A stretch of DNA of 64,000 nucleotides from an uncultured Gammaproteobacteria bacterium (GCA_964491475.1 CAZBFO010000002.1:277841-341840), one strand, 5' to 3'. Counted from the stretch's first letter, positions 15,663 through 59,002 are shown. A program made the numbers and translations. The notes: generated by a model not told the origin, from the sequence alone.

Positions 15663-15671
15663 TGGTATACT
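15663..15671 (+). promoter_or_regulatory. Extended -10 element TGGTATACT for the ABC-2 exporter operon
   Basis: The ATG at 15683 is 12 nt downstream. Confidence 0.4.
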
Positions 15672-15682
15672 TATAGCCTTGT

Positions 15683-16417
15683 ATGTCTACACCTGCTCTG
15701 GAGCTCAAATCGGTGACGAAACGGTTCGGTCAGACGATTGCGGTCGAAAACTTGTCGCTGTCGCTCAAGGCCGGAGAAATGTACGGGCTCATCGGCCCGA
15801 ACGGCTCGGGCAAAACGACGACCATGAAGATGATTGCCGGACTGTACCGGCAGACCGGCGGGGACATTCTGGTGCAGGGCATGGACGTTCTGGTCGCGCC
15901 GACCAAGGCAAAGGCGAAAATCGGCTACGTGCCCGACGAGCCGGTCGCCTATGAGCTTCTTTCGGGGCGCGAATTCCTGCATTTCGTGGGCGAGCTGTAC
16001 GGCGTTCCGCGCCAGGAACGCGAGGGACGCATTTCGGCGCTGCTTTCGGCCTATCACCTCGAAGGCGTCGCAGACGGGCTGTTCATGCATTATTCCCGCG
16101 GCACCAAGCAGAAGCTGTCGATGATAGCGGCGCTGCTGCACGAGCCGTCGCTGCTGCTGGTGGACGAGCCGATGGTGGGTCTCGATCCCGAGTCCGCGCT
16201 GATCACCAAAAAGCTGCTGACCGATTTCGTGGCGAAGGGCGGCAGCGTGCTGCTGTCGACGCACACGCTTTCCGTCGCCGACGAGATCTGCAATCGATTC
16301 GGCATCATCAAGCATGGCAGGCTCATCGCCGAAGGCACGCATGCCGAACTGTCCGCCAAATCGGACCGTTTGGGCACCCTCGAAGACGTCTTCTTGGCGC
16401 TGACCGCCGGAGTATGA
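15683..16417 (+). CDS. ABC transporter ATP-binding protein (ABC-2/DrrA-like)
   Basis: Walker A (GPNGSGKTT), Q-loop, ABC signature (YSRGTKQKLSM), Walker B (LLLVDEP) and H-loop. Confidence 0.9.
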   Translation: MSTPALELKSVTKRFGQTIAVENLSLSLKAGEMYGLIGPNGSGKTTTMKMIAGLYRQTGGDILVQGMDVLVAPTKAKAKIGYVPDEPVAYELLSGREFLHFVGELYGVPRQEREGRISALLSAYHLEGVADGLFMHYSRGTKQKLSMIAALLHEPSLLLVDEPMVGLDPESALITKKLLTDFVAKGGSVLLSTHTLSVADEICNRFGIIKHGRLIAEGTHAELSAKSDRLGTLEDVFLALTAGV

Positions 16418-18093
16418 CCGCGGTATACGCCCTCATCGCCAACCGGCTGCGCATGATCGCCACCGCCGCGCACCGTTCGAGCTGGGCGCAACGTTTGGTC
16501 GCCGCTTGCTTCTTTGCCATCGGCGCGGCGCTGATGTTCGGCGCCTATCTGCTTTTCCGCCGCGCCTTCCGTTTCATCCTGTCGGATACGGTTTCCGGCG
16601 CGCTGTTGCTGCGGTACGTCCTCGATGCCGCCTTCGCCATCACCTATTTTCTGGGCGTTTCAAGCGTAATCGTCACCTCGAACTCCCTGCTGTTCGGCGC
16701 CGACGACTTGCGGCTGCTCGTCCCCAAACCCATCGGTTCGGCGTCGCTCTTTGCCTACCGTTTTCTTGCCGCGACCGCGGCTTCGTCATGGCCGGTGCTG
16801 CTCATCGCCTTCCCGGCTATCACGGCGCTGGGAGCGACCTTCGGCGCGTCGCCGCTGTTCGTGGTCGTCGGCCTGGCGGTGATGCTTCTGTTCGTCTGTT
16901 CGGTCACGATTCTTGGCGGGCTGCTCTCGTTCTTTCTCGCTTGGGCTTGCAGGCCGTTGTCGTTGGCATTCCGAAAATTCTTGGAATTGCTGGCGTTTTT
17001 CGTCTTCGGCATGCTGCTGGTCCGCAGGATCGTTCCTCGAGGCGTCTTTGCCCTGTTCAACGTGAATACGGCGGCAGAGGTCGAAGCGGCCGCCGCGAAA
17101 ATGCATGCTCTCTTCTCGCCGCTGCCCAGCCATCCGTTTGCGGCGACCGTTTCCGCACTGGTGCCCTCGGGGGCAGAGGGGCCGTTGGGCACGCAGCTCG
17201 CCCTCACCTGCGCGACGCTGCTCCTCGGGTTCGTCGTGCTGATGGTCGTCGCTTCGGCCGCCTACGTGCGGCTATGGCAGCGATACGGCGAGACGGGACT
17301 GACCGCCGGCGTGACGGATCGGCCCGCACGCCTCGGTTTCCGACAGCCGTTCCCGCGGGTGTTCCGATGGGGACACTCGTTCCTGTTCGAAAAAGACCTC
17401 TTGCTGTTCGTTCGCGACGGTGCCGCGGTTTCTCGCGCCGGTTTCCTGCTGCTGCTTCTGGGATTGTACCTGCTGATAGTCCGCGCGGTCATGCGCGCCG
17501 TCGACGGCCAAGTGACGGGACAGTTCTTCGCCCATGCCGTGACCTTCGCGTTCGCGGCTATCGGCTACTTCGTGCTGACGCTGACCTTGCGGTTCGTGTT
17601 TCCCGCCCTGTCGTTGGAGGGGCGCGGCGCATGGCTGGAATGGGCCAGTCCCGTGCACACGCACGAGCTTTTTTCATGGAAGGTGTTTTTCTGGACGTCG
17701 CTGTTCACCGTGGCCATGGAGACGGCAGCGGCGGCGGTCATGGCGCTGTTCAGGCTGCCGGCAGGGTTGAGCCTGGGGTTCGCCTACGCCACGTTCCTGA
17801 CCGTGCTGTCGCTGGTCACCTTCGGCATGGCCGCAGGTTCCGTCGCGCCCGACTTCCGCGCCAAGGATCCCGACGAAGTGGCGACCTCGCCGATGGGGCT
17901 CGCTGCCACGGCCGGCGGCGCCTTTTACCTGCTGATCATGGCTCGTTACGTCTTCGGCATGTCCGCCGCTGCGGCCTCGGGACAGGAATACGACGTGCTG
18001 GCGTTGGTGGGAATGACCGTCGTTTCCCTCACGGTCGTCGCCTCGTCATGGGCCATGGCGCTGCTCTTCGTGGACAGGCTGGAAGTGACTTGA
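16414..18093 (+). CDS. ABC-2-type transporter permease (polytopic, about 12 TM helices)
   Basis: An ATGA overlap with the ATPase gene. The protein is highly hydrophobic with many predicted helices. Confidence 0.7.
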   Translation: MTAVYALIANRLRMIATAAHRSSWAQRLVAACFFAIGAALMFGAYLLFRRAFRFILSDTVSGALLLRYVLDAAFAITYFLGVSSVIVTSNSLLFGADDLRLLVPKPIGSASLFAYRFLAATAASSWPVLLIAFPAITALGATFGASPLFVVVGLAVMLLFVCSVTILGGLLSFFLAWACRPLSLAFRKFLELLAFFVFGMLLVRRIVPRGVFALFNVNTAAEVEAAAAKMHALFSPLPSHPFAATVSALVPSGAEGPLGTQLALTCATLLLGFVVLMVVASAAYVRLWQRYGETGLTAGVTDRPARLGFRQPFPRVFRWGHSFLFEKDLLLFVRDGAAVSRAGFLLLLLGLYLLIVRAVMRAVDGQVTGQFFAHAVTFAFAAIGYFVLTLTLRFVFPALSLEGRGAWLEWASPVHTHELFSWKVFFWTSLFTVAMETAAAAVMALFRLPAGLSLGFAYATFLTVLSLVTFGMAAGSVAPDFRAKDPDEVATSPMGLAATAGGAFYLLIMARYVFGMSAAAASGQEYDVLALVGMTVVSLTVVASSWAMALLFVDRLEVT

Positions 18094-18171
18094 CCGCAGC
18101 TCGGTCCGGCAGCCGGCGATTGACATTCGGGCCGATGTGCGATAAGGCTGGGTTACGTTTTGGAGGTGATC

Positions 18172-18720
18172 ATGAAAGCAGAAATCCGGTTCCGCCTGCT
18201 GGCCCTTTCGCAAGTTTCCTACGAATCGGCACGCTACGCCCACGACGCGATTAAGCGGCGGCTGGGCCTCGCTCCCGAGAAGTCGGTCATAGTCAACGTG
18301 CCCGACGGCACCCCCTTCCGCGAGCTGCAGGTCACGCAAGGTCTTTCCTCGTCTGACCTCCTGCTTTCCTGCAAGAAGCTGTGGAACAACAGCATCGCGC
18401 GGGGTCACGTGAATCCGTACCTGTTCTGCGGCGTCATCTGTGACAGTTATCCGGAGCTGGAGGACCGCACGGTGGTCGCCGACAACCGGCAGCTGCTGCG
18501 CATCGCCATGCGTCATGCCGCCGGCATCGTCAAAATGGGGGCGCGGCGCAGCGCCTATCTGCCCGCCTTCGTCGACGCCCAGATGGCGCACCTTTCCGGT
18601 TGTCAGGGCTGCATTGACGCCGTCCTGGCGCGCATCCGCGCCGGCCTGCGCACACGCAGCGGCATCCGCGCGATGCTCGAACACGCCGGGCTGCGCCGTC
18701 CCGCTTCGCCGCCGGTCTGA
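18172..18720 (+). CDS. Hypothetical cytoplasmic protein
   Basis: A GGAGGTG RBS lies 4 nt upstream of ATG 18172 (the TTG at 18160 is rejected). GC3 is high. No known domain. Confidence 0.5.
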   Translation: MKAEIRFRLLALSQVSYESARYAHDAIKRRLGLAPEKSVIVNVPDGTPFRELQVTQGLSSSDLLLSCKKLWNNSIARGHVNPYLFCGVICDSYPELEDRTVVADNRQLLRIAMRHAAGIVKMGARRSAYLPAFVDAQMAHLSGCQGCIDAVLARIRAGLRTRSGIRAMLEHAGLRRPASPPV

Positions 18721-18726
18721 ACCTTT

Positions 18727-18756
18727 CCCCTGCATTGCCAGGGGATTTTTGTTTTT
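18727..18756 (+). terminator. Rho-independent terminator
   Basis: CCCCTG-CATTGC-CAGGGG hairpin followed by ATTTTTGTTTTT. Confidence 0.55.
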
Positions 18757-18778
18757 GGTCGGCGCGGAAAGGCTTTTT

Positions 18779-18787
18779 TGCTATACT
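18779..18787 (+). promoter_or_regulatory. Extended -10 element TGCTATACT
   Basis: An exact 9-mer shared with the sites at 35668, 38851 and 48092. It lies about 56 nt upstream of the adhesin A start and just after the upstream terminator. Confidence 0.45.
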
Positions 18788-18842: not shown

Positions 18843-21314
18843 ATGTCGTTCATCAGGCGTTTCGCGCAGAGGATGCTTGCCGTCGTCGGGGTCGCCGCGG
18901 CGGTGGCCGCGTCGGTTTTTGCGCTTTCCGGATCGGTCTCATTGGCGCAGACGGGTGCTGCCCCGAAGATACTGACCGGCCCCACGGTCAGCAGCATCAC
19001 CGAGGATTCGGCCATCATTCGGTGGACGACCGACGTAGAAAGCACCACCGTGGTCGATTTCGGCACCACCGACTCGCTCGGGCAGACCTATCGAAAGATC
19101 ATCCCGATCGAAGAGACCGAGGTGACGGAGATTTCGCACACGATGACGCTGTCTCCGTTGAAGGCGGGCACGCGCTACTTCTTCAAAGTGTCCTCCTCGA
19201 CTTCCGGCGGCACAGCGTCTTCGGCCATCGTCGACTTCACTTCTGCCAGCCCGGCTTGCGGTCCTGACGCCTGGACTTGCACCGACTGGAGCGCCTGTGA
19301 GAAGGGCACCGGCGGCAGCTACGGCCAGACTCGCTCCTGCAGCGTGTCGGCGGCCTGCGCCGACGCGGGAGTACCAAAGCCGCAGACGTCGCAATCCTGC
19401 ACGCCCGCCTGCACCGAGGACACCTGGACCTGCGGAAATTGGCAGGCATGCTCGGCCGGCGGCACCCAGACCCGCGCCTGCACCTTGACGACCGATTGCC
19501 CGACGGCAAGCACGCCCAAGCCAGCCACTTCGCAGAGCTGCAGGCGGCCTTGTACTGCGGACGATTGGAAGTGCGGCGAGTGGGGCGATTGCAGCAAGGA
19601 GACGCAGACGCGCTCTTGCGCCCTGCCGACCACCTGCTCGGGCACGCCAGCCAAACCGGCCGAGAGCCAAAAGTGCGTCATGCCGAAACCGGCGTGCACC
19701 GACAAGGATTGGATTTGCGGAGAATGGGGCGCTTGTTCGGCCGACGGGAAGGCGAAGCGCGACTGTTCCTTGCCTACGACCTGCCTGCCCGTAAAGCCTG
19801 ACGAAAAAACCCGCTCCGAAATCAAGGACTGCCCGCCAGCCGGTGCCGAAGGCGACAAAAAGCCCGAAGAGCCGGCGAGTCCGACCGGGCAAGACCTGAA
19901 CGAGCCGCTGCCGCCCGACGCGAACGTGCCCTTCTCTCCCTCCGAGCCTCCCGCACCTCCGGTCCCGCCGCTTTCGGCGAGCACCGTTCTGGGCGGCGGC
20001 GACGAAAGCGCGGCGCTGCTGAAGGAATGTGCCGACAACAACATCGGTCCCGACCGTTGCCCGGCTTGGCTCGATGCCAAATATGGCGACCGTTCTTGCG
20101 AGGAAAACGGTATCTTCTCGAAGGAAGCCTGCGTTGCGTTCCTGCGCAAGACGCATGGGGGAACGGTTCCGGGCTGCGAGGGTAAGACCGAGGCGGAATG
20201 CAGCGAGATTTTGGCCCGCATGATGGCCGGCTACATGCCGGGAGACATGCATGACGAGATCGACGCCATGATCGGTACGACGAAGGCCGGCGAGATGTTT
20301 GACGCGCTCGGCGATGCGGCCCCGTCTGTGCTTGCCGTTCGTGCCAGCCACAAGGACAAGGTGCGCTGGTGGCCGTCCAAGCGCTCCGGCGATCAGGAGA
20401 CTTCGCCGGGAATGTTCGTCATCGACACCGATAAGGACGGCCTGCCGGACGACGTCGAGAAGCGGCTGGGCACCGATCCGAACGTTCCCGATGCGGCCGT
20501 CGCTCGTGAGATACTGAAGAAGTTCTTCGAGGCCGGCGACAAGCCTGCGCCGGAGCAGTTGGCCGTCCGCGAAAGGCTGAAGTCGTTCTTCGAGACGGGC
20601 GATAAGCCGTCCCAGGACGACGCCCGCGCGGCGATGGCCGCCTTCTTCGGCCCCGGCACGCCGCCAGGCAGCGTCAACGCCATCGACGCGGCGTTCATCC
20701 TCGGCTTGGCCGTCGGCCAGCCGACGGGGTCGGGTACCACGGACGACAGTTTCACCGTCGACGCCACCAGTTCGCCTGACGCCGCCGACGGCGGAGGCAT
20801 CACGCTGCACGGCCATGCGGCACCGGGCGCCGTGATCTTCCTGTACGTCTACAGCTACGTGCCGATGGTGCTGACCACCACCGCCGATGACAGCGGCAAC
20901 TACCAGTACGACATTTCCGACAACGTCGTCGACGGTTCGCATACCGCCTACGTGGCCCTGGTCGACGGCGCCGGCGACGTCGCCGCGAAGAGCAGGCCGC
21001 AGTCGTTCTTCGTGAAGACCGCCTTGGCAGTCACCGAAAGCGATTTCCTTGCCACCGACGCCAAGTTGACGCCGACCACGCCCGCTTCGAAAGCTACCAG
21101 CGTCTACCTGTACGGGGTCGCCGCGCTGTTGCTGGTCGCGCTGATTGCCGTCGGGTTCGTAATGCGGGGGACGCGGAAGCGGAAGGGCGCGGCACCGTCG
21201 CCCACGGGTCCGACGCCTCCGAAACCTCCTGCTCCACCGCCCACCGCTCCGCCAGCGCCTCAAACGCCGCCGGCACCGCCTGCGGCATCACCGCCCGCAG
21301 CACCGCCACGATAG
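18843..21314 (+). CDS. Giant surface protein, paralog A. Domain order: signal peptide, FN3-like domain, four TSP1-like Cys/Trp repeats, a Cys-rich module, a TSP3-like Asp box, an Ig-like domain, a TM anchor and a Pro-rich tail.
   Basis: Signal peptide MSFIRRFAQRMLAVVGVAAAVAASVFA. FN3-like ILTGPTVSSITEDSAIIRWTT...TRYFFKV. Four repeats of C-x3-W-x-C-x2-W-x2-C...QTR-x-C. DTDKDGLPDDVEKRLGTDPNVPD. The Ig-like domain ITLHGHAAPGAVIFLYVYSYVPMVLTTTADDSGNYQYD is homologous to the C-terminus of the 38869..42900 protein. TM helix VYLYGVAALLLVALIAVGFV followed by a proline-rich tail. Confidence 0.75.
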   Translation: MSFIRRFAQRMLAVVGVAAAVAASVFALSGSVSLAQTGAAPKILTGPTVSSITEDSAIIRWTTDVESTTVVDFGTTDSLGQTYRKIIPIEETEVTEISHTMTLSPLKAGTRYFFKVSSSTSGGTASSAIVDFTSASPACGPDAWTCTDWSACEKGTGGSYGQTRSCSVSAACADAGVPKPQTSQSCTPACTEDTWTCGNWQACSAGGTQTRACTLTTDCPTASTPKPATSQSCRRPCTADDWKCGEWGDCSKETQTRSCALPTTCSGTPAKPAESQKCVMPKPACTDKDWICGEWGACSADGKAKRDCSLPTTCLPVKPDEKTRSEIKDCPPAGAEGDKKPEEPASPTGQDLNEPLPPDANVPFSPSEPPAPPVPPLSASTVLGGGDESAALLKECADNNIGPDRCPAWLDAKYGDRSCEENGIFSKEACVAFLRKTHGGTVPGCEGKTEAECSEILARMMAGYMPGDMHDEIDAMIGTTKAGEMFDALGDAAPSVLAVRASHKDKVRWWPSKRSGDQETSPGMFVIDTDKDGLPDDVEKRLGTDPNVPDAAVAREILKKFFEAGDKPAPEQLAVRERLKSFFETGDKPSQDDARAAMAAFFGPGTPPGSVNAIDAAFILGLAVGQPTGSGTTDDSFTVDATSSPDAADGGGITLHGHAAPGAVIFLYVYSYVPMVLTTTADDSGNYQYDISDNVVDGSHTAYVALVDGAGDVAAKSRPQSFFVKTALAVTESDFLATDAKLTPTTPASKATSVYLYGVAALLLVALIAVGFVMRGTRKRKGAAPSPTGPTPPKPPAPPPTAPPAPQTPPAPPAASPPAAPPR
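19255..19832 (+). repeat. Four tandem ~47-aa thrombospondin type-1-like repeats (protein level) within adhesin A
   Basis: CGPDAWTCTDWSACEKGTGGSYGQTRSC, CTEDTWTCGNWQACSAGGTQTRAC, CTADDWKCGEWGDCSKETQTRSC and CTDKDWICGEWGACSADGKAKRDC, each ending ...PKP..SQ.C. Confidence 0.55.
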
Positions 21315-21335: not shown

Positions 21336-21370
21336 ATCGCCGTCGCCCCTAGCGCGACGGCGATTTTTTT
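21336..21370 (+). terminator. Rho-independent terminator after adhesin A
   Basis: An 11-bp stem ATCGCCGTCGC/GCGACGGCGAT followed by TTTTTTT. Confidence 0.7.
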
Positions 21371-21378
21371 GCTATAAT
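21370..21378 (+). promoter_or_regulatory. Extended -10 element TGCTATAAT (consensus), giving a near-leaderless transcript
   Basis: Directly follows the terminator T-run. The ATG at 21390 is 12 nt downstream. Confidence 0.5.
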
Positions 21379-23404: not shown

Positions 23405-23463
23405 GGCGTTAACTCGTATCTGTCGATGGGACTGTACCACGGGCGCGGTGCAGCGCACAGTCG

Positions 23464-25128
23464 TCACCGTTTGGCGCGGAAGGTCTGCATGTTGGCGTCG
23501 AACTGCGCCTTTTGCTCGGCCGTCAACATTCCCGGACCCTTGGGATTGTAACCGCCTTCCACCTCCCGGCCGTCTCCGAAGCCGTCACCGTCGGTGTCGG
23601 CCTTGAGAGGGTCGGTGCCGTAGACGTAGATTTCTTCTCCATCGGAAAGGCCGTCGAGGTCGGTGTCGGCGACGTTGGGGTTGGTGTTATAGACCATGGT
23701 CTCCTGCTCGTCGGACACGCCGTCGCCGTCGGTGTCGGCAGAAGGAGCGGCATCCGTTTGCGGGGCTTCGGCAGGAAGGGGATTCGACGGCGACGGCTGT
23801 TGTTCGGGGACGTTCGTCGCCGATGGCGGGGCGGGCACTGTCGTGGTGACGGTCTTTTCGTCCGGCGGTACCGTCGTCGGCTGCGGAGCCACGTCGAAGC
23901 CGTTGAGGCTAAGCGTATGGGGTCCTTTTGCGAAAGCCAGTACGCCCTGCTCCAGGGTGAAGCTGATGACGAAGGTCAGGTCCCGTTTCTGGTAACCGTA
24001 CCCAGGACCGTCGGGGTCCTTCGGTACCGTCTTCAGGTACCTTGGCGAAAGCTGGTCGAGCGAATCCGGATACGCCTTGTTGTCGCTGAACCAGCTGCCT
24101 AGCGCCAGCTTGATCATGTTCACGTCACCGTAACGCTGCAAGTCGCGTTCTTCGGGGGTGCTGGCGTACTTGGGAGGGGCGGTGACGGGCGCCGCCGAAG
24201 GTTCCCTGGCCTGCCGCTCGCCGAACGGGGCGTTGACGCTGATCTTGGTGAGGTCCGCAAGGTTGAACTTGGCGCGAGTCAGGAAGAAAACCGGCAGGGC
24301 TATGATGCCGACGAGACAAAACGCGCCGAGCGCCGCCAGGATGCGGTAGAAAAGCTTGCGCGAGGGCTTGACCGTCCATTCTTTTCCCACGACGGCCACG
24401 CAGTCCTCGTAGAACGTCTGCAGGTAGATGAGGTAGAAGGGGGAGAACAGCGCCGCGAACAGCCAACTTGCGGCCGAGGCCGCCGGCGAGACGAGTGCGG
24501 GCTTCGTGACCCAAGCTGCCGCCGCAGCGATGCCGCTGAACGCCAGGCCGATGATGCCGCCCATGACGGCAAGTCCCAACTGGTCGAAGAGCAGCGTAGT
24601 CGTGCGGCCGTATATCAGGTCGCGGCTTCGGGCCAGTGCCTCGACGCCCTTGCGGCGTTCATTGATGACGACGTAAACGGTTAACGTGAACCGGACGGCC
24701 ATTATCACCGCCGGGACGATCAGAAGGGAGGGCAGGAAGATGACCAATGAAAAAACAAACGTCGTGAAGATACCGGGAAGCAAGGAACCCAGACCTCGGC
24801 TGAAAGCCCTGCCGAATCGGAGTTCTCCGGCGGCGACCGCCACCAGCACGTAGGGTGCCAGCAAAGACGCCACAAAGCCGACGATGCCCAGGCCTGCAGC
24901 GGGGGCGGCCGGCAGATGGCCGCGCATCGCGGCCAATATGATGGAGGGCAGGCCGGTGACGCCGCTGATGAGCACGAACATGCCTAGCGAGGCCCGATAC
25001 CGTATGAAGGTCCTGTGCAGCCTGTCCTTCATCGGCGGAAAGATCACGGGCTTCACGAAGCCAACCGACGGCGCGGCTGGCACCGGCTGTGCGGGTTGTG
25101 CCGGAGTCACGATGGGTTCGGCTGGCAT
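23464..25128 (-). CDS. Chimeric membrane protein, paralog B: a polytopic N-terminal TM domain, a type IV pilin-like globular domain and three C-terminal TSP3-like Asp-rich calcium-binding repeats
   Basis: Six to eight TM helices in the first ~300 aa. Pilin-like motif ERDLQRYGDVNMIKLALGSWFSDNKAYPDSL...YLKTVPKDPDGPGYGY. C-terminal DTDGDGVSDEQE...DTDLDGLSDGEE...DTDGDGFGDGRE. Confidence 0.65.
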   Translation of the reverse strand: MPAEPIVTPAQPAQPVPAAPSVGFVKPVIFPPMKDRLHRTFIRYRASLGMFVLISGVTGLPSIILAAMRGHLPAAPAAGLGIVGFVASLLAPYVLVAVAAGELRFGRAFSRGLGSLLPGIFTTFVFSLVIFLPSLLIVPAVIMAVRFTLTVYVVINERRKGVEALARSRDLIYGRTTTLLFDQLGLAVMGGIIGLAFSGIAAAAAWVTKPALVSPAASAASWLFAALFSPFYLIYLQTFYEDCVAVVGKEWTVKPSRKLFYRILAALGAFCLVGIIALPVFFLTRAKFNLADLTKISVNAPFGERQAREPSAAPVTAPPKYASTPEERDLQRYGDVNMIKLALGSWFSDNKAYPDSLDQLSPRYLKTVPKDPDGPGYGYQKRDLTFVISFTLEQGVLAFAKGPHTLSLNGFDVAPQPTTVPPDEKTVTTTVPAPPSATNVPEQQPSPSNPLPAEAPQTDAAPSADTDGDGVSDEQETMVYNTNPNVADTDLDGLSDGEEIYVYGTDPLKADTDGDGFGDGREVEGGYNPKGPGMLTAEQKAQFDANMQTFRAKR

Positions 25129-25206
25129 AACGTTTTGCCCGACGGTCAGGCGGGCTATTCGTCGTCAGTATAGCACGGGCGGGCGCTGCCGAAGAACGCC
25201 CGCGCG

Positions 25207-33540: not shown

Positions 33541-33589
33541 CGGACATGCTACACTGCGTCAGTCAGAAACATTCCTTGCGCCTATTTCC

Positions 33590-34057: not shown

Positions 34058-34144
34058 GCGCGGGCCGGACCCTTCCCAAAAGCCGAAAATCTGCTAGGGT
34101 GCATCCGTTAGGAGCCGCATTAGCGGCGGAGGTGGCTTAGCCAT

Positions 34145-35617
34145 ATGTTTTTCAAGAAGCCGACCGTGACGCGCTTAGCGCAAGACCGGATCAGCGCCAG
34201 CATGTTCTACAAGTACGACGCCTGTCCGCATTGGCTGTATTTTGACGCCTACGGCGATCCGTCCAAGAAGGCGTCGGTGACGCAGTTCACGGAGATGCTG
34301 CTCAAGGGCGGCGTGCTGCACGAGCAGGAGGTCATCAAGGACATGCAGTGCGTGCAGCCCAAGGGCGACACGCAGGAAGAGCGGTTCTCGGCCACGCTGC
34401 AGCTCATGCGCGACGGCGCGGCCTGCATCTACCACGGCGTGCTGATGGACGACGAGTTCGTGGGCGAGCCGGACCTGCTGGAGCGACGCGACGGCTCGGC
34501 CGGTTCGACCTTCGGCAGCTACCATTACGTGCCCGTGGAGATCAAGAGCGCCGAACGCGTTTCCGACGCGCACAAGTACCAGTTGTACTGTTATGGCGAA
34601 CTGCTGGAACGGCTGCAGGGCACGCGGCCCGAGGAAGCCTACGTGCTGAACGGCTCGGGCCTGCGCATCGGTTTCATGCTGCGCGAGTTCCGCGAGCAGT
34701 TCGCCGCCGCCGTCGAGGACATCCGCAAGACTTTGGCCGGCGATCCTCCGCCGCCGCACGTGGCCTCGAGCTGCAAGCAGTCGCCATGGTTCAAGGAGTG
34801 CCTGGCCTTCGCCGAGAAGCAGGACGACATCGCCCTGCTGTACAACGTGAAGAAGAAGGTGGTGGCGGCGCTGCGCGAACACGGCGTCAGGACCGTCCAG
34901 GACGCCGCCAAGATCGAGCCGAACCGGCTCGCCAAGGAAGACAAGCTGTTCAAGCCGGCGCTGCTGGAGCGCATCGTGCTGCAGGCCCGGGCGCTGATCG
35001 AAAAGCGCCACTTCGTCCGCAAGCCGCTCGACATTCCCGAAGCGCCCCTGGAAATCTTCTTCGACATCGAAGGCGATCCGCTGCGGCAGGTGGAATACCT
35101 GTTCGGCTTCCTGGTGCGCCGCCAAGGACAGGAGGAAAAGTACGAGTACCAGATTGCCGAACGCGCCGAGGACGAAGCCAAGATGTGGAACGAGTTCCTG
35201 ACGTGGGTGAGCGCGCTCGAAGGGGATTACGTGGTGTACCACTACGGCACCTATGAGCTGACGAGGCTCATCCAGCTGGAGGCGCGTCACGGTTGCCCGG
35301 CAGGGCAGGCCGCGGCGCTCAATCTGTTCCGCGACCGGTTGGTGGACCTGAACGAGCTGGTGAAGGACGCGGTGGTGTTTCCGCTGTACTTCTACAGCAT
35401 CAAGGACATCGGCAAGTACATCGGCTTCACCCGAGAGGGCGCCATCGTCGGGGGCGGGGAGTCGGTGGCGGTCTACGAGGACTGGCTGGCCAACGGCGAC
35501 CGCAAAAAGCTCGACGACATCATCCTCTACAACAAGGAGGACGTGATCGCCACGCGCTACCTCAAGGACTGGCTGGTACTGGAACGCGACCGCGAAAAGG
35601 CCGATCGGGCCCTGTAA
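34145..35617 (+). CDS. TM0106-family putative nuclease (RecB/Cas4-like PD-(D/E)xK domain plus a C-terminal RNase H-like domain)
   Basis: N-terminal YKYDACPHWLYFD...EPDLLERRDG...YVPVEIKS (PD-(D/E)xK) and C-terminal FFDIEGDP...YHYGTYE (RNase H-like exonuclease). Confidence 0.75.
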   Translation: MFFKKPTVTRLAQDRISASMFYKYDACPHWLYFDAYGDPSKKASVTQFTEMLLKGGVLHEQEVIKDMQCVQPKGDTQEERFSATLQLMRDGAACIYHGVLMDDEFVGEPDLLERRDGSAGSTFGSYHYVPVEIKSAERVSDAHKYQLYCYGELLERLQGTRPEEAYVLNGSGLRIGFMLREFREQFAAAVEDIRKTLAGDPPPPHVASSCKQSPWFKECLAFAEKQDDIALLYNVKKKVVAALREHGVRTVQDAAKIEPNRLAKEDKLFKPALLERIVLQARALIEKRHFVRKPLDIPEAPLEIFFDIEGDPLRQVEYLFGFLVRRQGQEEKYEYQIAERAEDEAKMWNEFLTWVSALEGDYVVYHYGTYELTRLIQLEARHGCPAGQAAALNLFRDRLVDLNELVKDAVVFPLYFYSIKDIGKYIGFTREGAIVGGGESVAVYEDWLANGDRKKLDDIILYNKEDVIATRYLKDWLVLERDREKADRAL

Positions 35618-35667: not shown

Positions 35668-35676
35668 TGCTATACT
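35668..35676 (+). promoter_or_regulatory. Extended -10 element TGCTATACT for pgi, with a short leader or leaderless
   Basis: The ATG at 35686 is 10 nt downstream. The element follows the upstream terminator. Confidence 0.45.
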
Positions 35677-35685: not shown

Positions 35686-37017
35686 ATGCCCACACCATCA
35701 CGCATCGGTTACGACCACGCCAACATGTGGAGCTCGGCGGCAGAGAGCGGTTCCGCCGATGTCCGTCGCGAAGCGATCCTGCACCCGCTCGAAGGCGTGA
35801 AGCAGAAGCTCGAAGCCGACTGGGCTTCGGGACGCGCGGGATTTTTCACGATTCCTGACCTGAAGAAAGATCTGGCGGCGACCAAAAAGCTTGCCGTCGC
35901 CGTCGCCAAGGAGTTCCGCGACTTGGTGGTCATCGGCATCGGCGGTTCGGACCTGGGCGCGCGGGCGCTGCTGCGCGCGCTGCAAAAGGACGGGAAGGGG
36001 ATGCGGGTGCATTTCATCGGCGCCAACACCGACCCCGACGAGATCGAGGCGCTGCTCGCGCGCATCGACCTGCGCAAGACCGCGCTGAACGTCATTTCCA
36101 AGTCGGGCGACACCATCGAGCCGATGAGCGCCTTCCTGCTGCTCCGCGACCTGCTCATCAAGAAGGTGGGGCACAAGAAGCACGCGCGGCATGTCGTCGC
36201 CACCACTGACGCGAAGAACGGCACCATGCGGCAGATCGCCGACCGCGAGGGGTACCGCACGCTGCCCGTGCCGGGCAACATCGGCGGGAGGTTCTCGGCG
36301 CTGACTACGGTGGGCCTGTTTCCCGCCGCCTGCGCAGGCATCGACGTTTCCGCGTTGGTGGCCGGCGCCGCCGCGGAGCGCTCCGCCTTCGACAGGGCCA
36401 AGGCAGACGACTACGGGCCGCTGCTTTTTGCCGCGCTGCAGTACGACGCCAACGAAGATGGCGGCCGGAACATCAACGTCCTGATGCCTTACGCCGACGG
36501 CCTCAAGGAACTCGGCGCCTGGTTCCGCCAGCTGTGGGCCGAGAGCCTCGGCAAAAAGCTCGACCGGCGCGGGCAAATCGTGCACCGCGGCATGACGCCG
36601 GTAGCCGCGTTGGGCGCCACCGACCAGCACTCGCAGGTGCAGCTGTACGTCGAAGGTCCGGCCGACAAGACCGTCACCTTCATCGAAGTGAAGAAGTTCG
36701 CCTCGAAGCTGAAAGTGCCGAACCCGTATCCCGACATCGAGGGCGTGGCCTACATGGCAGGGCATTCCTTCGAGAAGATCATCCATGCCGAGCGCGCCGC
36801 GACGGCGCATGCCCTCGCTCGCAACGGGCGCCCCAACGGCACCATCTTCATTCCGTCCGTCGATGCCAAAACGGTGGGCGGCCTGATGTTTTTCTTCATG
36901 ATCGCCACCGCCGCCGCCGCCGAGCTGCTCGACGTGAACGCCTATGACCAGCCGGGCGTGGAGGGGGGCAAAAAGGCCATGTACGCCATGCTCGGCCGCA
37001 AAGGGTATTCGCTGTAA
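35686..37017 (+). CDS. pgi: Glucose-6-phosphate isomerase
   Basis: SIS-domain motifs VVIGIGGSDLGARAL and ISKSGDTIEP. An extended -10 lies 10 nt upstream of the ATG. Confidence 0.9.
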   Translation: MPTPSRIGYDHANMWSSAAESGSADVRREAILHPLEGVKQKLEADWASGRAGFFTIPDLKKDLAATKKLAVAVAKEFRDLVVIGIGGSDLGARALLRALQKDGKGMRVHFIGANTDPDEIEALLARIDLRKTALNVISKSGDTIEPMSAFLLLRDLLIKKVGHKKHARHVVATTDAKNGTMRQIADREGYRTLPVPGNIGGRFSALTTVGLFPAACAGIDVSALVAGAAAERSAFDRAKADDYGPLLFAALQYDANEDGGRNINVLMPYADGLKELGAWFRQLWAESLGKKLDRRGQIVHRGMTPVAALGATDQHSQVQLYVEGPADKTVTFIEVKKFASKLKVPNPYPDIEGVAYMAGHSFEKIIHAERAATAHALARNGRPNGTIFIPSVDAKTVGGLMFFFMIATAAAAELLDVNAYDQPGVEGGKKAMYAMLGRKGYSL

Positions 37018-37055
37018 GCCCAAAGATGGTACACTTTGAACACCACTTATCTTCT

Positions 37056-38850: not shown

Positions 38851-38859
38851 TGCTATACT
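38851..38859 (+). promoter_or_regulatory. Extended -10 element TGCTATACT for giant surface protein C
   Basis: The ATG at 38869 is 10 nt downstream. Confidence 0.45.
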
Positions 38860-43812: not shown

Positions 43813-43874
43813 CCCTGCCCCTTTCGCGTACATCTGGTATTCTGTAGCTGTACCTCTTCCCGTTGATGACGCTT

Positions 43875-48060: not shown

Positions 48061-48091
48061 CGGGCCGCCTCTCGTCAGGGGGTCGCTTTTG

Positions 48092-48100
48092 TGCTATACT
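48092..48100 (+). promoter_or_regulatory. Extended -10 element TGCTATACT
   Basis: The ATG at 48110 is 10 nt downstream. Confidence 0.45.
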
Positions 48101-51482: not shown

Positions 51483-51607
51483 CGGATTCTCCTCTGAAAT
51501 GAGCGGTTTTCTTGCACGATGCCCACCGGCATCGACGCTCTTTTGTAGCAGCGTTTGGGCTTTCGGTCAACATGCGGCGTTTATCCACCCTTGTCGGCAC
51601 CAGCACC

Positions 51608-51636
51608 TTGACGGTTATGGGCGGTTCATATACAGT
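51608..51636 (+). promoter_or_regulatory. Candidate sigma-70-type promoter for rplJL (TTGACG-17-TACAGT)
   Basis: A TTGACG -35 and a TACAGT -10 with a 17-nt spacer, about 210 nt upstream of the rplJ ATG, leaving room for a long structured leader. Confidence 0.4.
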
Positions 51637-51658
51637 ACCGGCACAACCGAATTGCCTA

Positions 51659-51770
51659 AGACAATGGGTCCCGAAAAGGGTTAAGTGCTCGCGAAAGCGG
51701 GCGGCCTATCGAGGTAACAGCCTTTGATTTTCCCCGTAAACGGGCGAAAACGCATTGGAACCCATTGTCT
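51659..51770 (+). promoter_or_regulatory. Structured 5' leader of rplJ, candidate L10(L12)4 autoregulatory leader
   Basis: An 11-bp perfect long-range inverted repeat (AGACAATGGGT...ACCCATTGTCT) encloses about 90 nt containing a CCC-GAAAA-GGG hairpin, a CUCGC-GAAA-GCGGG GNRA hairpin and a CCCG-UAAA-CGGG hairpin. Confidence 0.4.
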
Positions 51771-51844
51771 GCGGCCATACGGCGTGCAGATGTTTTGTTT
51801 TAAAGGTCGATTTGGAGGAATCAACGTAAAAGGAGAATCCCACT

Positions 51845-52369
51845 ATGGCCAAGTCTCGTGCAAAGAAGCAATCAGAAGTTCAGGAGTTCGTTGAAGGTTT
51901 CACCAAGTCGAACGCGGTCGTCTTCGCGGACTTGTCAGGACTCAAGGTGAACGACGCCTCGTCGTTCCGCCGCACCGCCAAGAAGGAGGACGTCGCCATC
52001 AACACGGCGAAGAAGACCCTTCTGAAGATCGCCCTCAAGGAAGCTGCCGTGACGGCAGTCGACACCAAGGACCTCGGCGGCTCGGTCTCGATGCTCTTCG
52101 GCTTCGGCGACGCCGTCGCTCCCGCCAAGGTGCTCGAGGAGTTCCGCAAGGATCACGCCAACGTCAAAGTGCTCGGCGGCATCCTCGAAGGAAAGTGGAT
52201 GACCACCCAGCAGGTCCAGGCGCTCGCCAAGCTTCCTTCGAAGCAGCAGCTGCTGGGACAGCTCGTCGGTACGCTCAACGCGCCGGTCTCCGGCTTCGTC
52301 AACGTGCTCGCCGGCAACCTCCGCGGTCTCGTCACCGTTCTCAATGCGGTCAAGGAAGCCAAGGCTTAA
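51845..52369 (+). CDS. rplJ: 50S ribosomal protein L10
   Basis: An AAAGGAG RBS, and N-terminal FVEGFTKSNAVVFADLSGLKVNDASSFRR typical of L10. Confidence 0.95.
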   Translation: MAKSRAKKQSEVQEFVEGFTKSNAVVFADLSGLKVNDASSFRRTAKKEDVAINTAKKTLLKIALKEAAVTAVDTKDLGGSVSMLFGFGDAVAPAKVLEEFRKDHANVKVLGGILEGKWMTTQQVQALAKLPSKQQLLGQLVGTLNAPVSGFVNVLAGNLRGLVTVLNAVKEAKA

Positions 52370-52402
52370 TACTCAACTGTTGTTAAACTACCCACCACTA
52401 CT

Positions 52403-52807
52403 ATGTCGGAAATGAAGAACGTGGAGGTCCCGGCCAAGTTCAAGGACCTCGTCGAGTCGATCGAAAAGATGACCGTCCTTGATCTCGCCGAGCTCGTGAA
52501 GCTCCTCGAGGACAAGTTCGGCGTCTCCGCCGCCGCTCCTGCCATGATGATGGCCGCCCCGGCCGTCGGCGGTGCAGCTGCCGCCGCCGAAGAGAAGACC
52601 TCTTTCGACGTTGAGCTCACCGATGCCGGCGCCAACAAGATCGGCGTCATCAAGGCGGTCCGCGAACTGACCCAGCTCGGCCTCAAGGAGGCCAAGGACA
52701 TGGTCGACGGCGCCCCCAAGATGGTCAAGGAAGGCGTCGCCAAGGCCGATGCCGACACCATGAAGAAGAAGCTCGAAGAGGCCGGCGCCAAGGTTACCCT
52801 CAAGTAA
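52403..52807 (+). CDS. rplL: 50S ribosomal protein L7/L12
   Basis: N-terminal dimerisation helix, an Ala-rich hinge ([22 protein letters not shown]) and a C-terminal domain ([67 protein letters not shown]). Confidence 0.95.
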
Positions 52808-56357: not shown

Positions 56358-56440
56358 ACGTAGCGCTACTTTTCCACACTCTTAAGGATAGCTTATTCTT
56401 CGGCAAAAGGCATCGGTTCGGCGGTCCAAAACGGCCGTTG

Positions 56441-56469
56441 TTGACCGCCGCATACTGGGGGATTATACT
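56441..56469 (+). promoter_or_regulatory. Sigma-70-type promoter TTGACC-17-TATACT
   Basis: A near-consensus -35 and -10 with a 17-nt spacer, about 54 nt upstream of ATG 56523. Confidence 0.5.
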
Positions 56470-56522
56470 ACACGAGAACTTAAAGGGGTACTGCAGTTTG
56501 CGGCCCCGGTGTGGACACCGAC

Positions 56523-57155: not shown

Positions 57156-57191
57156 CACGGGAAGGCGCGGCACTCTGTGCCCTCGTATTTT

Positions 57192-57608
57192 ATGTTGCTT
57201 TATCTCGATCTCCGCCGCGACGAAGTGACGCTTGCCGCCGTCGACGCCAGGGGCGCCAAGTGGCTCGTCGTGCCCGGCGACAACATGATCGGCCGCGCGC
57301 TCGACAAGGCCAAGAAACCGTTCGGTCTGCTCCGCAAGAAGCCGACCGGCGTGGTGCTGGCCATGAACGCGCCGGGCGCGGTGCGGAACGTTTCTTGGAG
57401 CGGCGTTCGCCAAGGCGTGGCCACGGCAAACTCCCTGGCCTTCGCCTGGGGCGTGCCGGTCGCCGCCGTCGGCATCTGCGGCGACGAGTCGCGCCAAGCG
57501 CTTGCCGAGATGGCGCGCAGGGCTGCCGACGGCGCCAAGCTTGGCGAATGGGTCGGTGCGGTATACAGCGGCGAGCCGACCATTACCAAGTCGAAAAACG
57601 AATTATGA
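57192..57608 (+). CDS. tsaB: tRNA threonylcarbamoyladenosine biosynthesis protein TsaB-like (YeaZ; inactive Kae1 homolog, short)
   Basis: MLLYLDLRRDEVTLAAVDARG matches the TsaB N-terminal ASKHA motif. A bidirectional terminator follows. Confidence 0.65.
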   Translation: MLLYLDLRRDEVTLAAVDARGAKWLVVPGDNMIGRALDKAKKPFGLLRKKPTGVVLAMNAPGAVRNVSWSGVRQGVATANSLAFAWGVPVAAVGICGDESRQALAEMARRAADGAKLGEWVGAVYSGEPTITKSKNEL

Positions 57609-57636
57609 AAGACCGGACGTTTGTCCGGTCTTTTTT
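57609..57636. terminator. Bidirectional terminator between tsaB and the methyltransferase gene
   Basis: AAGACCGGAC-GTTT-GTCCGGTCTT followed by TTTTTT. Confidence 0.7.
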
Positions 57637-57639
57637 GCC

Positions 57640-58212
57640 CTACGACTTCGTCGCCTTCATCAAGAAGGCCGGGAAGAGGTTAAGCAGTTCGAACTCCAGG
57701 TGCACCGGTCCGAACGCCTCTTTCATGTACGGCATCATCAGCGGCGAGTACTGGTGGAAGATGACGAAGGTGCCTCCGGGGCGGAGCATCTTCTTGGCCG
57801 ACGCCACCACCGAGCGGCGCTCGTCTTTGGAAAGATAAGTGAAAGGGATACTGGCGATGACAGCATCGGCGTTGCCGACTGCTTCCGGCAGGTGCTTTTC
57901 CAAGTCCTGCGCCACGCCCTCGATTATGGTCAGCCGAGAATCGGTAATCTTGCGCAGGTCCGCGACGAAATGCGGATTGCGCTCGATGGCGATGACCCTG
58001 GCGTTCTGGCCCATCTTGGCCAGCACGGCCATGGTAGAAACCCCGTCGCCAGGACCAAGCTCGACCACCAGCTTGGCGCCAGCCAGATCCATCTGGCGGC
58101 ACAGGCGCTTCATCAGGAAGCCGAGGCTGGGACTGACGGCCGCGACATGCGGGTCGCCCAGCCATTTTCGAACGTAAGACGTGGGTTTGGCAGCAGAAGA
58201 TGTTGAGGGCAT
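57640..58212 (-). CDS. Class I SAM-dependent methyltransferase
   Basis: Motif I VVELGPGDGVSTMAV, motif II RVIAIERNP and post-I acidic motif. Start chosen at MPSTSS; the ORF extends to 58371. Confidence 0.7.
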   Translation of the reverse strand: MPSTSSAAKPTSYVRKWLGDPHVAAVSPSLGFLMKRLCRQMDLAGAKLVVELGPGDGVSTMAVLAKMGQNARVIAIERNPHFVADLRKITDSRLTIIEGVAQDLEKHLPEAVGNADAVIASIPFTYLSKDERRSVVASAKKMLRPGGTFVIFHQYSPLMMPYMKEAFGPVHLEFELLNLFPAFLMKATKS

Positions 58213-58304
58213 AAGAGGGAGATGACCGGAGTGTAGCGGAAGCCTCGTTTGCCGTCGAGCCTTTGAGCCTGTGTTTTCCGAATGCGGCGCGGTACACTGC
58301 AGCC

Positions 58305-58931
58305 ATGTCCTGGTTCTACCAGCCCAAACGACCCGTGGCCACCAAGCGAAACGGCACCATGATGCTGTCACGCTTCCTTGGCGTCTGGACGCTGTGGGGA
58401 CATGACGGCACCCATCAGGCGTCGCAGTACATGAACGTGGTGTGGAGCAAGATCGTGCGTCATCTGCGTCGTGAATACGGCGAATTCGAACCGCGCCGAT
58501 GCCTGATTTTGGGCGTGGCCATGGGCGCCACCTTCGGCATCGTCCAAAAGGCCTGGCCCGACGCCGACGTCGTCGGCATCGATTGGGAGCCGGATCTCTT
58601 CGCGCTCGGAAAAAAGCTCGGCATCTTCCGTCCCGGCCCGCGCCTGACGTTCGTCGAGGGCGATGCCGCCGTCGAGGTGCCGAAACTCGAAGGTAAGTTC
58701 GACTTGGTCATCGTCGACCTTTTCAACGGCCATCGCGTGGCCGATGTCGTCGCGCAAAACGGCTTCCGTGCGGCACTGACGGATCATTTGGCCGAAGGGG
58801 GCGTATTGGCGCTGAACTGCTACGACCAGCGACAGTTCCTCGAAGAGTGGCCGCCGCAGCTCCGTCAGCCGACGCTCGTCCGGCACGAGGCCAACACCAT
58901 CGGCATCTTCGGTTCCTCGGAGCGAACCTAG
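58305..58931 (+). CDS. Spermidine-synthase-like / class I methyltransferase-fold protein
   Basis: ILGVAMGATFGIV...VVGIDWEPDLFALGKK...FDLVIVDLFNGH resembles spermine/spermidine synthase family proteins. Confidence 0.55.
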   Translation: MSWFYQPKRPVATKRNGTMMLSRFLGVWTLWGHDGTHQASQYMNVVWSKIVRHLRREYGEFEPRRCLILGVAMGATFGIVQKAWPDADVVGIDWEPDLFALGKKLGIFRPGPRLTFVEGDAAVEVPKLEGKFDLVIVDLFNGHRVADVVAQNGFRAALTDHLAEGGVLALNCYDQRQFLEEWPPQLRQPTLVRHEANTIGIFGSSERT

Positions 58932-59002
58932 GAGCGTCGGGACCATTGATAGTACGGGGGATTGCTGCTATGGTGACCAGCGACGCGCAGGGCGTTTTTT
59001 CT

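What the first reader, a model, noticed from the sequence alone, without database searches (positions are those of the whole stretch)
15663..58974. Conserved extended -10 element TG(C/G)TAYAMT placed 6-25 nt upstream of start codons, implying widespread leaderless or short-leader mRNAs
Exact TGCTATACT occurs at 18779, 35668, 38851 and 48092, and TGCTATAAT at 21370. Variants are TGGTATACT at 15663, TGCTACACT at 33547, TGGTACACT at 37027, CGGTACACT at 58290, TGGTATTCT at 43836, TGCTATGGT at 58966 and GATTATACT (with TTGACC-17) at 56464. Every occurrence is intergenic, on the same strand as the downstream gene, and usually 10-20 nt from the ATG. Most of these genes lack a Shine-Dalgarno sequence. 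By contrast, genes with good SDs (sigma factor, 13971, lipoproteins, rplJ) lack the motif. This points to two classes of translation initiation in this organism and a strongly conserved TGn-extended -10 that may replace the need for a -35.
Basis: partly seen in the sequence, partly recalled or inferred. Interest (0 to 1): 0.5.

Follow-up and report, generated by a model that had tools for sequence, protein, structure and literature searches.

The report
Promoter boxes right next to start codons
The repeated TGCTATACT-like motif is this uncultivated (Patescibacteria/CPR) bacterium's ordinary promoter "-10 box", often so close to the ATG that the mRNA has little or no leader; this layout is well known in other bacteria, so the finding is real but not surprising.

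Summary
The motif is real and far above chance. TGSTAYAMT occurs 10 times against 0.44 expected. Nine copies lie in the 7.3% of the window that is intergenic (0.06 expected there), and all nine point at an unobstructed downstream gene. With relatives included, the conserved core is TGnTAnnnT, the signature of an extended -10 promoter element. No -35 hexamer is conserved. TGCTATACT is kept upstream of the orthologous glucose-6-phosphate isomerase gene in five related metagenome genomes while the surrounding spacer diverges.

Distances from the -10 to the start codon are bimodal. One peak is at 6-11 nt (leaderless or a leader of at most 5 nt; 7 genes here). The other is broad, at 20-66 nt, and mostly lacks a Shine-Dalgarno (SD) sequence. 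SD is real but rare (about 10-20% of genes). It is absent from all 15 genes whose TGnTAnnnT box lies 7-11 nt from the start codon.

"Two classes" is too simple, and several listed sites are leadered. This is the "group C" architecture of GeneMarkS-2 (Actinobacteria, Deinococcus-Thermus), here in a high-GC Patescibacteria lineage. It also shows up in more distant Patescibacteria loci. It is a new member of a known kind, of modest interest. No transcription start site (TSS) data were available.

The parts
35668..35676 (+). TGCTATACT extended -10 box, 9 nt before ATG 35686 of pgi (glucose-6-phosphate isomerase). Predicted leader 0-3 nt.
   Evidence: Exact hit. The 9-mer is conserved upstream of orthologous pgi in L001, L007, L008, L009/L010 and L014 while the flanks diverge. 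M1 and the N-terminus are invariant or conserved in 11 homologues. No SD: duplex energy +0.6.
38851..38859 (+). TGCTATACT, 9 nt before ATG 38869 of a 1343-aa Big/TSP3 surface protein.
   Evidence: The orthologues in L007 and L008 carry TGCTAAGAT / TGCTAAAAT 8 nt before their ATG.
48092..48100 (+). TGCTATACT, 9 nt before ATG 48110 (Bestrophin-like membrane protein). It follows directly on a hairpin plus T-run.
   Evidence: The L009 orthologue keeps TGCTATACT but at 29 nt.
21370..21378 (+). TGCTATAAT, 11 nt before ATG 21390 (AI-2E family transporter). The terminator hairpin 21336-21364 and its T-run lead straight into the TG.
   Evidence: An in-frame stop at 21375 makes 21390 the first possible start, and the Pfam domain begins at residue 11.
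15663..15671 (+). TGGTATACT, 11 nt before ATG 15683 (ABC transporter ATPase).
   Evidence: In-frame stop at 15674. The N-terminus MSTPALELKSVTKRFG looks, from my own knowledge and untested here, like the first beta-strand of ABC ATPases.
58290..58298 (+). CGGTACACT (no TG), 6 nt before ATG 58305 (methyltransferase). The geometry fits a truly leaderless mRNA.
6525..6533 (+). TAGTACAGT, 6 nt before ATG 6540 (UvrD/PcrA-type helicase). Truly leaderless geometry.
   Evidence: In-frame stop at 6525; the UvrD domain starts at residue 10.
37027..37035 (+). TGGTACACT, 20 nt before ATG 37056 (cyclophilin). Short leader of about 13 nt, no SD.
43835..43843 (+). TGGTATTCT, 31 nt before ATG 43875 (Germane-domain lipoprotein). 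Leadered, no clear SD.
   Evidence: The orthologues in L007, L008, L009 and L011-L013 all have TGnTAnnnT at 26-32 nt.
33547..33555 (+). TGCTACACT, 34 nt before ATG 33590 (155-aa hypothetical protein). Leadered, no SD.
25167..25175 (-). TGCTATACT on the minus strand, 38 nt before ATG 25128 (TSP3-repeat protein 23464-25128).
   Evidence: The L009 orthologue has TGCTATACT at 36 nt.
18779..18787 (+). TGCTATACT, 55 nt before ATG 18843 (secreted fn3/Big protein). Leadered, no SD.
   Evidence: Coding potential and the signal peptide MSFIRRFAQRMLAVVG place the start at 18843.
23431..23439 (-). TGGTACAGT, 26 nt before ATG 23404.
34092..34100 (+). TGCTAGGGT, 44 nt before ATG 34145 (RNase_H_2-family protein), with GGAGG in the leader. 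This is the leadered, SD-bearing version of a gene whose orthologues have the -10 box 9-10 nt from the ATG.
56461..56470 (.). Overlapping divergent -10 boxes. GATTATACT on the plus strand has TTGACC 17 bp upstream and about 53 nt to ATG 56523. TAGTATAAT on the minus strand lies 104 nt before ATG 56357.
51608..51636 (+). Canonical TTGACG-17-TACAGT promoter, followed by an L10-leader-like RNA (51637-51807), an AAGGAG SD and rplJ at ATG 51845. It serves as the comparison case for the leadered, SD-using class.
   Evidence: RF00557, 32.9 bits, E=0.0012, below the gathering score of 44..
62301..62309 (+). TGGTACACT inside the GT2 glycosyltransferase gene 61619-62467. It is the one exact copy in coding DNA, probably chance or a weak internal promoter.
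   Evidence: 0.24 expected in coding DNA.
58966..58974 (+). It overlaps a candidate start (ATG 58970) or lies 28 nt before ATG 59003. Ambiguous.

Best explanation
The motif is the -10 region of promoters read by the organism's housekeeping sigma-70-family factor, in the 'extended -10' form TGnTAnnnT (local optimum TGCTATACT). It works without a recognisable -35 hexamer.

The genome is very compact. A unit of terminator, promoter and start codon often fits in 40-75 bp. In about a quarter to a third of transcription units the -10 lies 6-11 nt from the ATG. Transcription starting about 7 nt past the -10 would then give mRNAs with a 0-5 nt 5' UTR. These must be translated by a leaderless-type, SD-independent route, which is inferred rather than shown here.

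Other units use the same -10 at 20-66 nt and mostly also lack SD. A minority (about 10-20% of genes) have a classical GGAGG 5-10 nt before the ATG.

What is shown: the motif's enrichment, its strand and position bias, its conservation, the absence of a -35, the start codon positions, and the absence of SD. What is inferred: that RNA polymerase starts there, the exact TSS, and the mode of translation.
For: - Enrichment and orientation.
- TG dependence: TGNTANNNT occurs 19 times in intergenic DNA against 3.15 expected, whereas plain TANNNT occurs 71 times against 64.
- The positions that vary are those that vary in known -10 elements (positions 3 and 6-8). No -35 is conserved (scans).
- Phylogenetic footprint: TGCTATACT is kept before pgi in L001, L007, L008, L009 and L014 with divergent flanks.
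- Pooled over 7 loci there are 44 sense against 9 antisense TGnTAnnnT sites in upstream spacers. Fifteen sit at 7-11 nt against 3.08 expected (p about 1e-6).
- The per-position density of TAnnnT peaks at 6-11 nt in the window (11 sites across 41 upstream regions, p=0.002) and in distant Patescibacteria loci L014-L016 (15 sites across 49, p=0.004).
- Starts are pinned by in-frame stops inside or beside the -10, by Pfam domain boundaries and by conserved N-termini.
- All 15 proximal genes start with ATG, and none has an SD.
- The same gene switches between a -10 at 9-10 nt without SD and a -10 at 44 nt with GGAGG.
- The architecture matches the published GeneMarkS-2 group C description (PMC6028130; TANNNT models for high-GC genomes).
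Against: - There are no TSS or expression data, so promoter activity and 5' ends are inferred from sequence alone.
- The modal gap is 9 nt, against the 6-8 nt reported for M. tuberculosis. With a canonical start 7 nt after the -10 this gives a 3-nt leader, which in E. coli impairs leaderless-type translation (my own knowledge, not tested).
- Gene starts in the relatives come from automatic gene calls.
- L007 and L008, and L009 and L010, are close to each other, so the pooled counts are not fully independent.
- Only one 64-kb window plus roughly 20-kb pieces of relatives were examined, not whole genomes.
Confidence: 0.8

Rival explanations
1. The motif is the binding site of a specific transcription factor or other DNA-binding regulator (a regulon operator), not the core promoter.
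For: The exact 9-mer TGCTATACT recurs 5 times in the window and again in relatives. That is tighter than many bacterial -10 elements. C is preferred at positions 3 and 8.
Against: - The downstream genes are functionally unrelated: pgi, ABC ATPase, AI-2E transporter, cyclophilin, surface proteins, helicase, methyltransferase.
- The 9-mer is not a palindrome.
- The variable positions are those that vary in known -10 elements.
- Strand bias towards the gene is strict (11 of 11) and the position peak sits at the -10-to-TSS distance.
- Bare TAnnnT shows the same peak in distant lineages of 44-57% GC.
Confidence: 0.05
2. The motif lies in the mRNA and acts as a non-SD ribosome-binding or translation-enhancer element, as in GeneMarkS-2 'group B' genomes. 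On this reading the genes are leadered, not leaderless.
For: The motif is A/T-rich, lies at a short and fairly fixed distance (modal 9 nt) from the ATG, and SD is rare in this clade.
Against: - It is absent before internal operon genes. None of the 41 genes with an upstream gap of 15 nt or less has it, although they also lack SD. Group B motifs precede internal genes too (PMC6028130).
- The same motif occurs at 20-66 nt.
- The TG-n-TAnnnT pattern is the RNA polymerase contact pattern, not a known rRNA complement.
- Terminator T-runs abut it, leaving no room for an upstream promoter within the spacer.
Confidence: 0.07
3. The pattern is a compositional or annotation artefact: A/T-rich intergenic DNA in a 64% GC genome plus mis-chosen start codons.
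For: Intergenic GC is 57% against 64% for coding DNA. Some starts are ambiguous (58970/59003, 56511/56523, 18795/18843).
Against: - Shuffles restricted to intergenic DNA still expect only 0.06 copies against 9 observed.
- The strand bias cannot be explained by composition.
- The motif is conserved at orthologous sites.
- Three starts are fixed by an in-frame stop immediately upstream, and the pgi start by 11 aligned homologues.
Confidence: 0.02

Closest known systems
GeneMarkS-2 'group C' genome architecture (Lomsadze et al. 2018, PMC6028130), with experimentally mapped leaderless transcriptomes in Mycobacterium tuberculosis (Cortes 2013) and Deinococcus deserti (de Groot 2014)
   Same: A TAnnnT Pribnow box sits about 6-11 nt before the start codon of first genes in operons, with no SD on those genes. 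An SD is used by a separate set of genes. About 25-35% of transcription units are affected, close to the 25-50% reported for group C. The genome is high-GC.
   Different: - The lineage is Patescibacteria/CPR, not Actinobacteria or Deinococcus-Thermus. No paper in the held library links CPR with leaderless mRNAs.
- The TG extension is near-obligatory.
- The modal gap is 9 nt, against 6-8 nt in M. tuberculosis.
- SD use among the remaining genes is very low (about 10-20%), rather than SD being the default for non-leaderless genes.
Extended -10 (TGn) promoters of E. coli and Gram-positive bacteria, which can function without a -35 hexamer
   Same: TG lies one base upstream of a TAnnnT hexamer, and there is no conserved -35.
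   Different: Here it appears to be the dominant promoter form rather than a minority class. Independence from the -35 is inferred from lack of conservation, not measured. No upstream TRTG-type extension was seen.
SD-poor translation initiation in Bacteroidota and Cyanobacteria (GeneMarkS-2 group B/X)
   Same: Most genes, including internal operon genes and genes with 20-40 nt leaders, lack an SD.
   Different: A genuine SD peak at -12 to -9 exists for a minority of genes, so the anti-SD is presumably functional. No alternative conserved RBS motif was seen before internal genes.

Membership tests
Extended -10 sigma-70-type promoter | A -10 hexamer fitting TAnnnT (consensus TATAAT) | tested here: met
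   All 10 exact sites carry TAYAMT. Among 44 TGnTAnnnT sites in 7 loci the internal hexamer positions favour T, A and C/A, giving TATACT/TATAAT.
Extended -10 sigma-70-type promoter | A TG dinucleotide one base upstream of the hexamer | tested here: met
   TGNTANNNT occurs 19 times in intergenic DNA against 3.15 expected, whereas TANNNT occurs 71 times against 64. A few functional-looking sites lack TG (58290 CGG, 6525 TAG).
Extended -10 sigma-70-type promoter | A weak or absent -35 hexamer, with activity independent of it | tested here: inconclusive
   No conserved column lies 15-40 nt upstream, and the two-hexamer scan is not enriched. Functional independence from the -35 cannot be tested in silico.
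Extended -10 sigma-70-type promoter | Transcription initiates about 5-9 nt downstream of the hexamer | not testable with these tools
   No TSS or RNA data are available. In all 6 nine-nt-gap sites checked by eye, position 7 after the -10 is a purine, usually preceded by a pyrimidine. This is consistent but not proof.
Leaderless mRNA (5' UTR 0-5 nt) | The TSS coincides with, or lies within 5 nt of, the start codon | not testable with these tools
   Geometry only. Gaps from the -10 to the ATG are 6, 6, 9, 9, 9, 11 and 11 nt in the window and 7-11 nt in relatives.
Leaderless mRNA (5' UTR 0-5 nt) | No Shine-Dalgarno sequence | tested here: met
   None of the 15 proximal genes has an anti-SD duplex of -6 kcal/mol or stronger; the mean is -0.8.
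Leaderless mRNA (5' UTR 0-5 nt) | An AUG (rarely GUG) start codon on the first gene of a transcription unit | tested here: met
   15 of 15 start with ATG, and all have an upstream spacer of at least 38 nt. Starts are supported by in-frame stops, domain boundaries and homologue N-termini.
GeneMarkS-2 group C genome | A dual start model: a promoter box about 10 nt before leaderless first genes, and an SD RBS before the other genes | tested here: inconclusive
   The first half is met. The SD peak at -12 to -9 exists but covers only about 10% of 146 genes. GeneMarkS-2 itself could not be run, and only partial genomes were available.

The most novel reading that the evidence does not exclude
Patescibacteria (CPR) as a whole may be a leaderless-rich, SD-poor radiation. 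TAnnnT boxes at 6-11 nt from the ATG recur in loci of 44-68% GC.

The preferred -10-to-AUG gap of about 9 nt is longer than the 6-8 nt of Actinobacteria. This would mean one of two things. Either their RNA polymerase starts farther from the -10, or their reduced ribosomes efficiently initiate on 2-3-nt leaders. That would link the stripped-down CPR translation apparatus to an ancestral, SD-independent mode of initiation.
Probability: 0.3. Interest if true: 0.55.

Novelty: new member of a known kind. Interest (0 to 1): 0.3.

Why it matters
- Gene annotation: start codons in CPR/Patescibacteria MAGs are called by tools tuned to SD. The identical pgi here is on record 13 codons short (P0001, 430 aa against 443 aa). 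Knowing that the lineage uses start-proximal extended -10 boxes and few SDs would improve start-codon and operon annotation, and would supply promoter parts for an uncultivated group.
- Biology: it adds a deep-branching lineage with reduced ribosomes to the list of bacteria that rely heavily on leaderless or SD-independent initiation. That bears on arguments that this mode is ancestral. The mechanism itself is textbook.

Tried and rejected
- No tRNA genes and no Rfam families at gathering threshold anywhere in the window, so the motif is not part of a known RNA element.
- An exact-sequence look-up of the window's pgi product found no contig on record. The closest record starts 13 codons later.
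- The canonical -35/-10 scan showed no enrichment, so a standard two-hexamer promoter model was rejected for most sites.
- TTG 18795, 7 nt after the motif at 18779, was considered as a leaderless start. It was rejected on coding potential and the signal peptide beginning at ATG 18843.
- GTG 15713, preceded by GGAG, was considered as an SD-led alternative start for the ABC ATPase. It was rejected because it would remove the N-terminal LELKSVTKRFG segment. That this segment is the conserved first strand of ABC ATPases is my own knowledge, not tested here.
- Literature searches for leaderless plus CPR, Patescibacteria, Saccharibacteria or TM7x found nothing relevant. The TM7x TSS paper (PMID 35975994) is not held, and the GeneMarkS-2 supplementary species lists are not held. 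I therefore cannot say whether any CPR genome was already classed as group C.
- T at position -1 looked like a TSS (Y-1/R+1) signal, but it appears general to nearly all genes in the clade, so it is uninformative.

Full report
**What the window is.** The window has 61-66% GC and is densely coding. My curated map has 58 genes, and intergenic DNA makes up 7.3% of the window at 57% GC. The gene content includes DUF4012, YceG, very large Big/TSP3 surface proteins, Kelch and Germane domains, and a stand-alone rplJ-rplL pair. The nearest homologues of the pgi product are labelled Patescibacteria group, Candidatus Uhrbacteria or Parcubacteria. Together these place the window in a high-GC Patescibacteria (CPR) lineage. 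Syntenic relatives were fetched: L001, L007-L013, and the more distant L014-L016, L002 and L003.

- TGSTAYAMT occurs 10 times against 0.44 expected.
- Nine of these are intergenic, against 0.064 expected when only intergenic DNA is shuffled. The density ratio of intergenic to coding DNA is about 114-fold.
- With one mismatch allowed, all 16 intergenic hits face an unobstructed downstream gene. In spacers flanked by genes on one strand, 11 of 11 are on the gene strand.
- 58966 overlaps a possible start codon, so it is ambiguous.

**What is it?** It behaves as an extended -10 promoter element.
- Pooling the window with six related loci gives 44 TGnTAnnnT sites in upstream spacers. The pattern fixes positions 1, 2, 4, 5 and 9; at positions 3 and 6-8 the sites vary, with TGCTATACT as the optimum.
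- The TG matters. TGNTANNNT is six-fold enriched in intergenic DNA, while bare TANNNT is not enriched.
- Nothing is conserved at -35, and a two-hexamer promoter scan is no better than shuffles.
- The element is a phylogenetic footprint. TGCTATACT is retained before orthologous pgi in L001, L007, L008, L009/L010 and L014, although the rest of each spacer differs.
- Several copies sit immediately after a terminator hairpin whose T-run leads directly into the TG (21336-21378, 18726-18787, 48067-48100). This leaves no room for another promoter in that spacer.

**Distance to the start codon.** Starts were set without reference to the motif, using coding potential, in-frame stops, Pfam domain boundaries, a signal peptide and an 11-sequence pgi alignment with invariant M1.
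- Gaps from the last T of the -10 to the start codon fall into two groups. The proximal group is 6 nt (58290, 6525), 9 nt (35668, 38851, 48092) and 11 nt (15663, 21370). The distal group is 20 nt (37027), 26, 31, 34, 38, 44 and 55 nt.
- Across seven loci the distribution is bimodal. Fifteen sites lie at 7-11 nt against 3.1 expected if placement were uniform (p about 1e-6). A broad second mode spans 20-66 nt.
- The density of any TAnnnT peaks at 6-11 nt in the window (11 sites across 41 upstream regions, p=0.002). It does the same in the distant Patescibacteria loci L014-L016 (15 sites across 49 upstream regions, p=0.004).
- In L002 and L003 (44-46% GC), pgi has TATACT at 7 nt and TATAAT at 8 nt.

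**Shine-Dalgarno use.**
- A genuine GGAG/GAGG peak exists at -12 to -9 (14 occurrences against about 4 per bin). It covers only 11 of 57 genes in the window and about 10% of 146 genes overall.
- None of the 15 -10-proximal genes has an SD.
- These genes do not lack promoters. Several have weaker TGnTAnnnT boxes 42-66 nt upstream. rplJ has TTGACG-17-TACAGT followed directly by a sub-threshold L10_leader match (32.9 bits, E=0.0012).
- Tightly packed internal operon genes also lack SD (1 of 41 has one), and so do most genes with 20-40-nt leaders. 'Two classes' is therefore too simple.
- The RNase_H_2-family gene is leadered with GGAGG here (box at 34092). In L007, L008 and L009 its -10 lies 9-10 nt from the ATG with no SD. 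This shows the two arrangements interconvert.

**Mechanism.** The shown steps are the sequence features above. The inference is that the housekeeping sigma factor recognises TGnTAnnnT. I did not find a primary sigma gene in the window, only an ECF-type one at 8855. On this reading RNA polymerase starts about 7 nt downstream. For the proximal class the transcript then begins at the A of the ATG (6-nt gaps) or 3-5 nt before it (9- and 11-nt gaps), and it is translated without an SD. In the six 9-nt-gap sites I checked by eye, position 7 is a purine, usually after a pyrimidine. This favours a 3-nt leader if the start-site rule known from E. coli holds (my own knowledge). It cannot be decided without 5'-end data.

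**Comparison with what is known.** This is the architecture that GeneMarkS-2 calls group C. In that group a Pribnow box lies about 10 nt (6-8 nt in M. tuberculosis) before first genes in operons, SD is used elsewhere, and 25-50% of transcripts are leaderless. It is typical of Actinobacteria, Deinococcus-Thermus and high-GC genomes in general (PMC6028130; MetaGeneMark-2 preprint). The differences here are the lineage, the strong TG requirement, the 9-nt mode, and the very low SD use among the remaining genes. I found no paper in the held library that links CPR or Patescibacteria with leaderless mRNAs. Key sources could not be read: the TM7x TSS paper and the GeneMarkS-2 supplementary tables. 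Prior classification of CPR genomes as group C therefore cannot be excluded.

**Rivals.**
- A regulon operator is unlikely. The downstream genes are unrelated, the motif is not a palindrome, and its variable positions are those that vary in known -10 elements.
- An mRNA-borne non-SD ribosome-binding site is unlikely. The motif is absent before internal genes, it occurs at 20-66 nt as well, and it abuts terminators.
- A compositional or annotation artefact is excluded by the intergenic-only shuffles, the strand bias, the orthologous conservation and the pinned starts.

**Verdict.** The motif is real and is best read as an extended -10 promoter without a -35. The leaderless or very-short-leader reading is well supported by geometry for about half the listed sites, and it is untested experimentally. 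It is a new member of a known kind, of modest interest (0.3). The more novel possibility is that this is a CPR-wide trait with an unusual 9-nt spacing tied to their reduced translation machinery. That reading is not excluded (about 0.3) and would be moderately interesting.

Noticed in passing
window 51483-52807: rplJ-rplL stand alone, with no rplK/rplA upstream and no rpoB downstream. The 362-nt upstream spacer holds TTGACG-17-TACAGT (51608-51636). It is followed immediately by a full-length but sub-threshold L10_leader match (51637-51807, 32.9 bits against a gathering score of 44, E=0.0012).
   Followed up: partly
window 34092-34147 compared with L007:640-712, L008:6440-6516, L009:3100-3174: The orthologous RNase_H_2-family gene is leadered here, with GGAGG and a -10 box 44 nt from the ATG. 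In three relatives it has a -10 box 9-10 nt from the ATG and no SD. This is evolutionary switching between the SD-led and the leaderless-type arrangement.
   Followed up: partly
window-wide and L007-L016: SD use is very low for a bacterium, about 10% of 146 genes. Internal operon genes separated by 15 nt or less almost never have one (1 of 41). A T at position -1 before the ATG appears common throughout the clade (seen by eye, not counted).
   Followed up: partly
window 12543-12817: There is a 275-nt spacer upstream of metK with no SAM riboswitch or other Rfam match, even at E up to 1.
   Followed up: yes
window 10183-10643: A 461-nt stretch (60% GC) between convergent genes has no gene called in my map and no RNA family hit at gathering threshold. 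Unexplained.
   Followed up: no
window 21336-21378, 18726-18787, 48067-48100: Intrinsic-terminator-like hairpins whose T-run leads directly into the TG of the next gene's extended -10 box. Terminator, promoter and start codon are packed into 49-122 bp spacers.
   Followed up: partly
window 56461-56470: Two -10 boxes overlap on opposite strands (GATTATACT / TAGTATAAT) in a divergent spacer. The plus-strand box is one of the few with a good -35 (TTGACC, 17 bp upstream).
   Followed up: no
window 52381-52389: TGTTAAACT lies 13 nt before the rplL ATG, inside the 33-nt rplJ-rplL spacer. It may be an internal promoter or a chance match.
   Followed up: no
L007 (GCA_035495855.1), L008 (GCA_035494885.1): NCBI names the pgi products of these MAGs as Candidatus Binatia and Candidatus Eisenbacteria. 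Yet the contigs are syntenic over more than 15 kb with Patescibacteria/Uhrbacteria-like loci, which suggests mis-binning or mislabelling.
   Followed up: no
window 35686-37017; protein P0001: The public record of the identical pgi product is 430 aa, starting at Met14. Eleven homologues support the 443-aa form, which starts 9 nt after the -10 box. Automatic callers mis-start these SD-less genes.
   Followed up: yes
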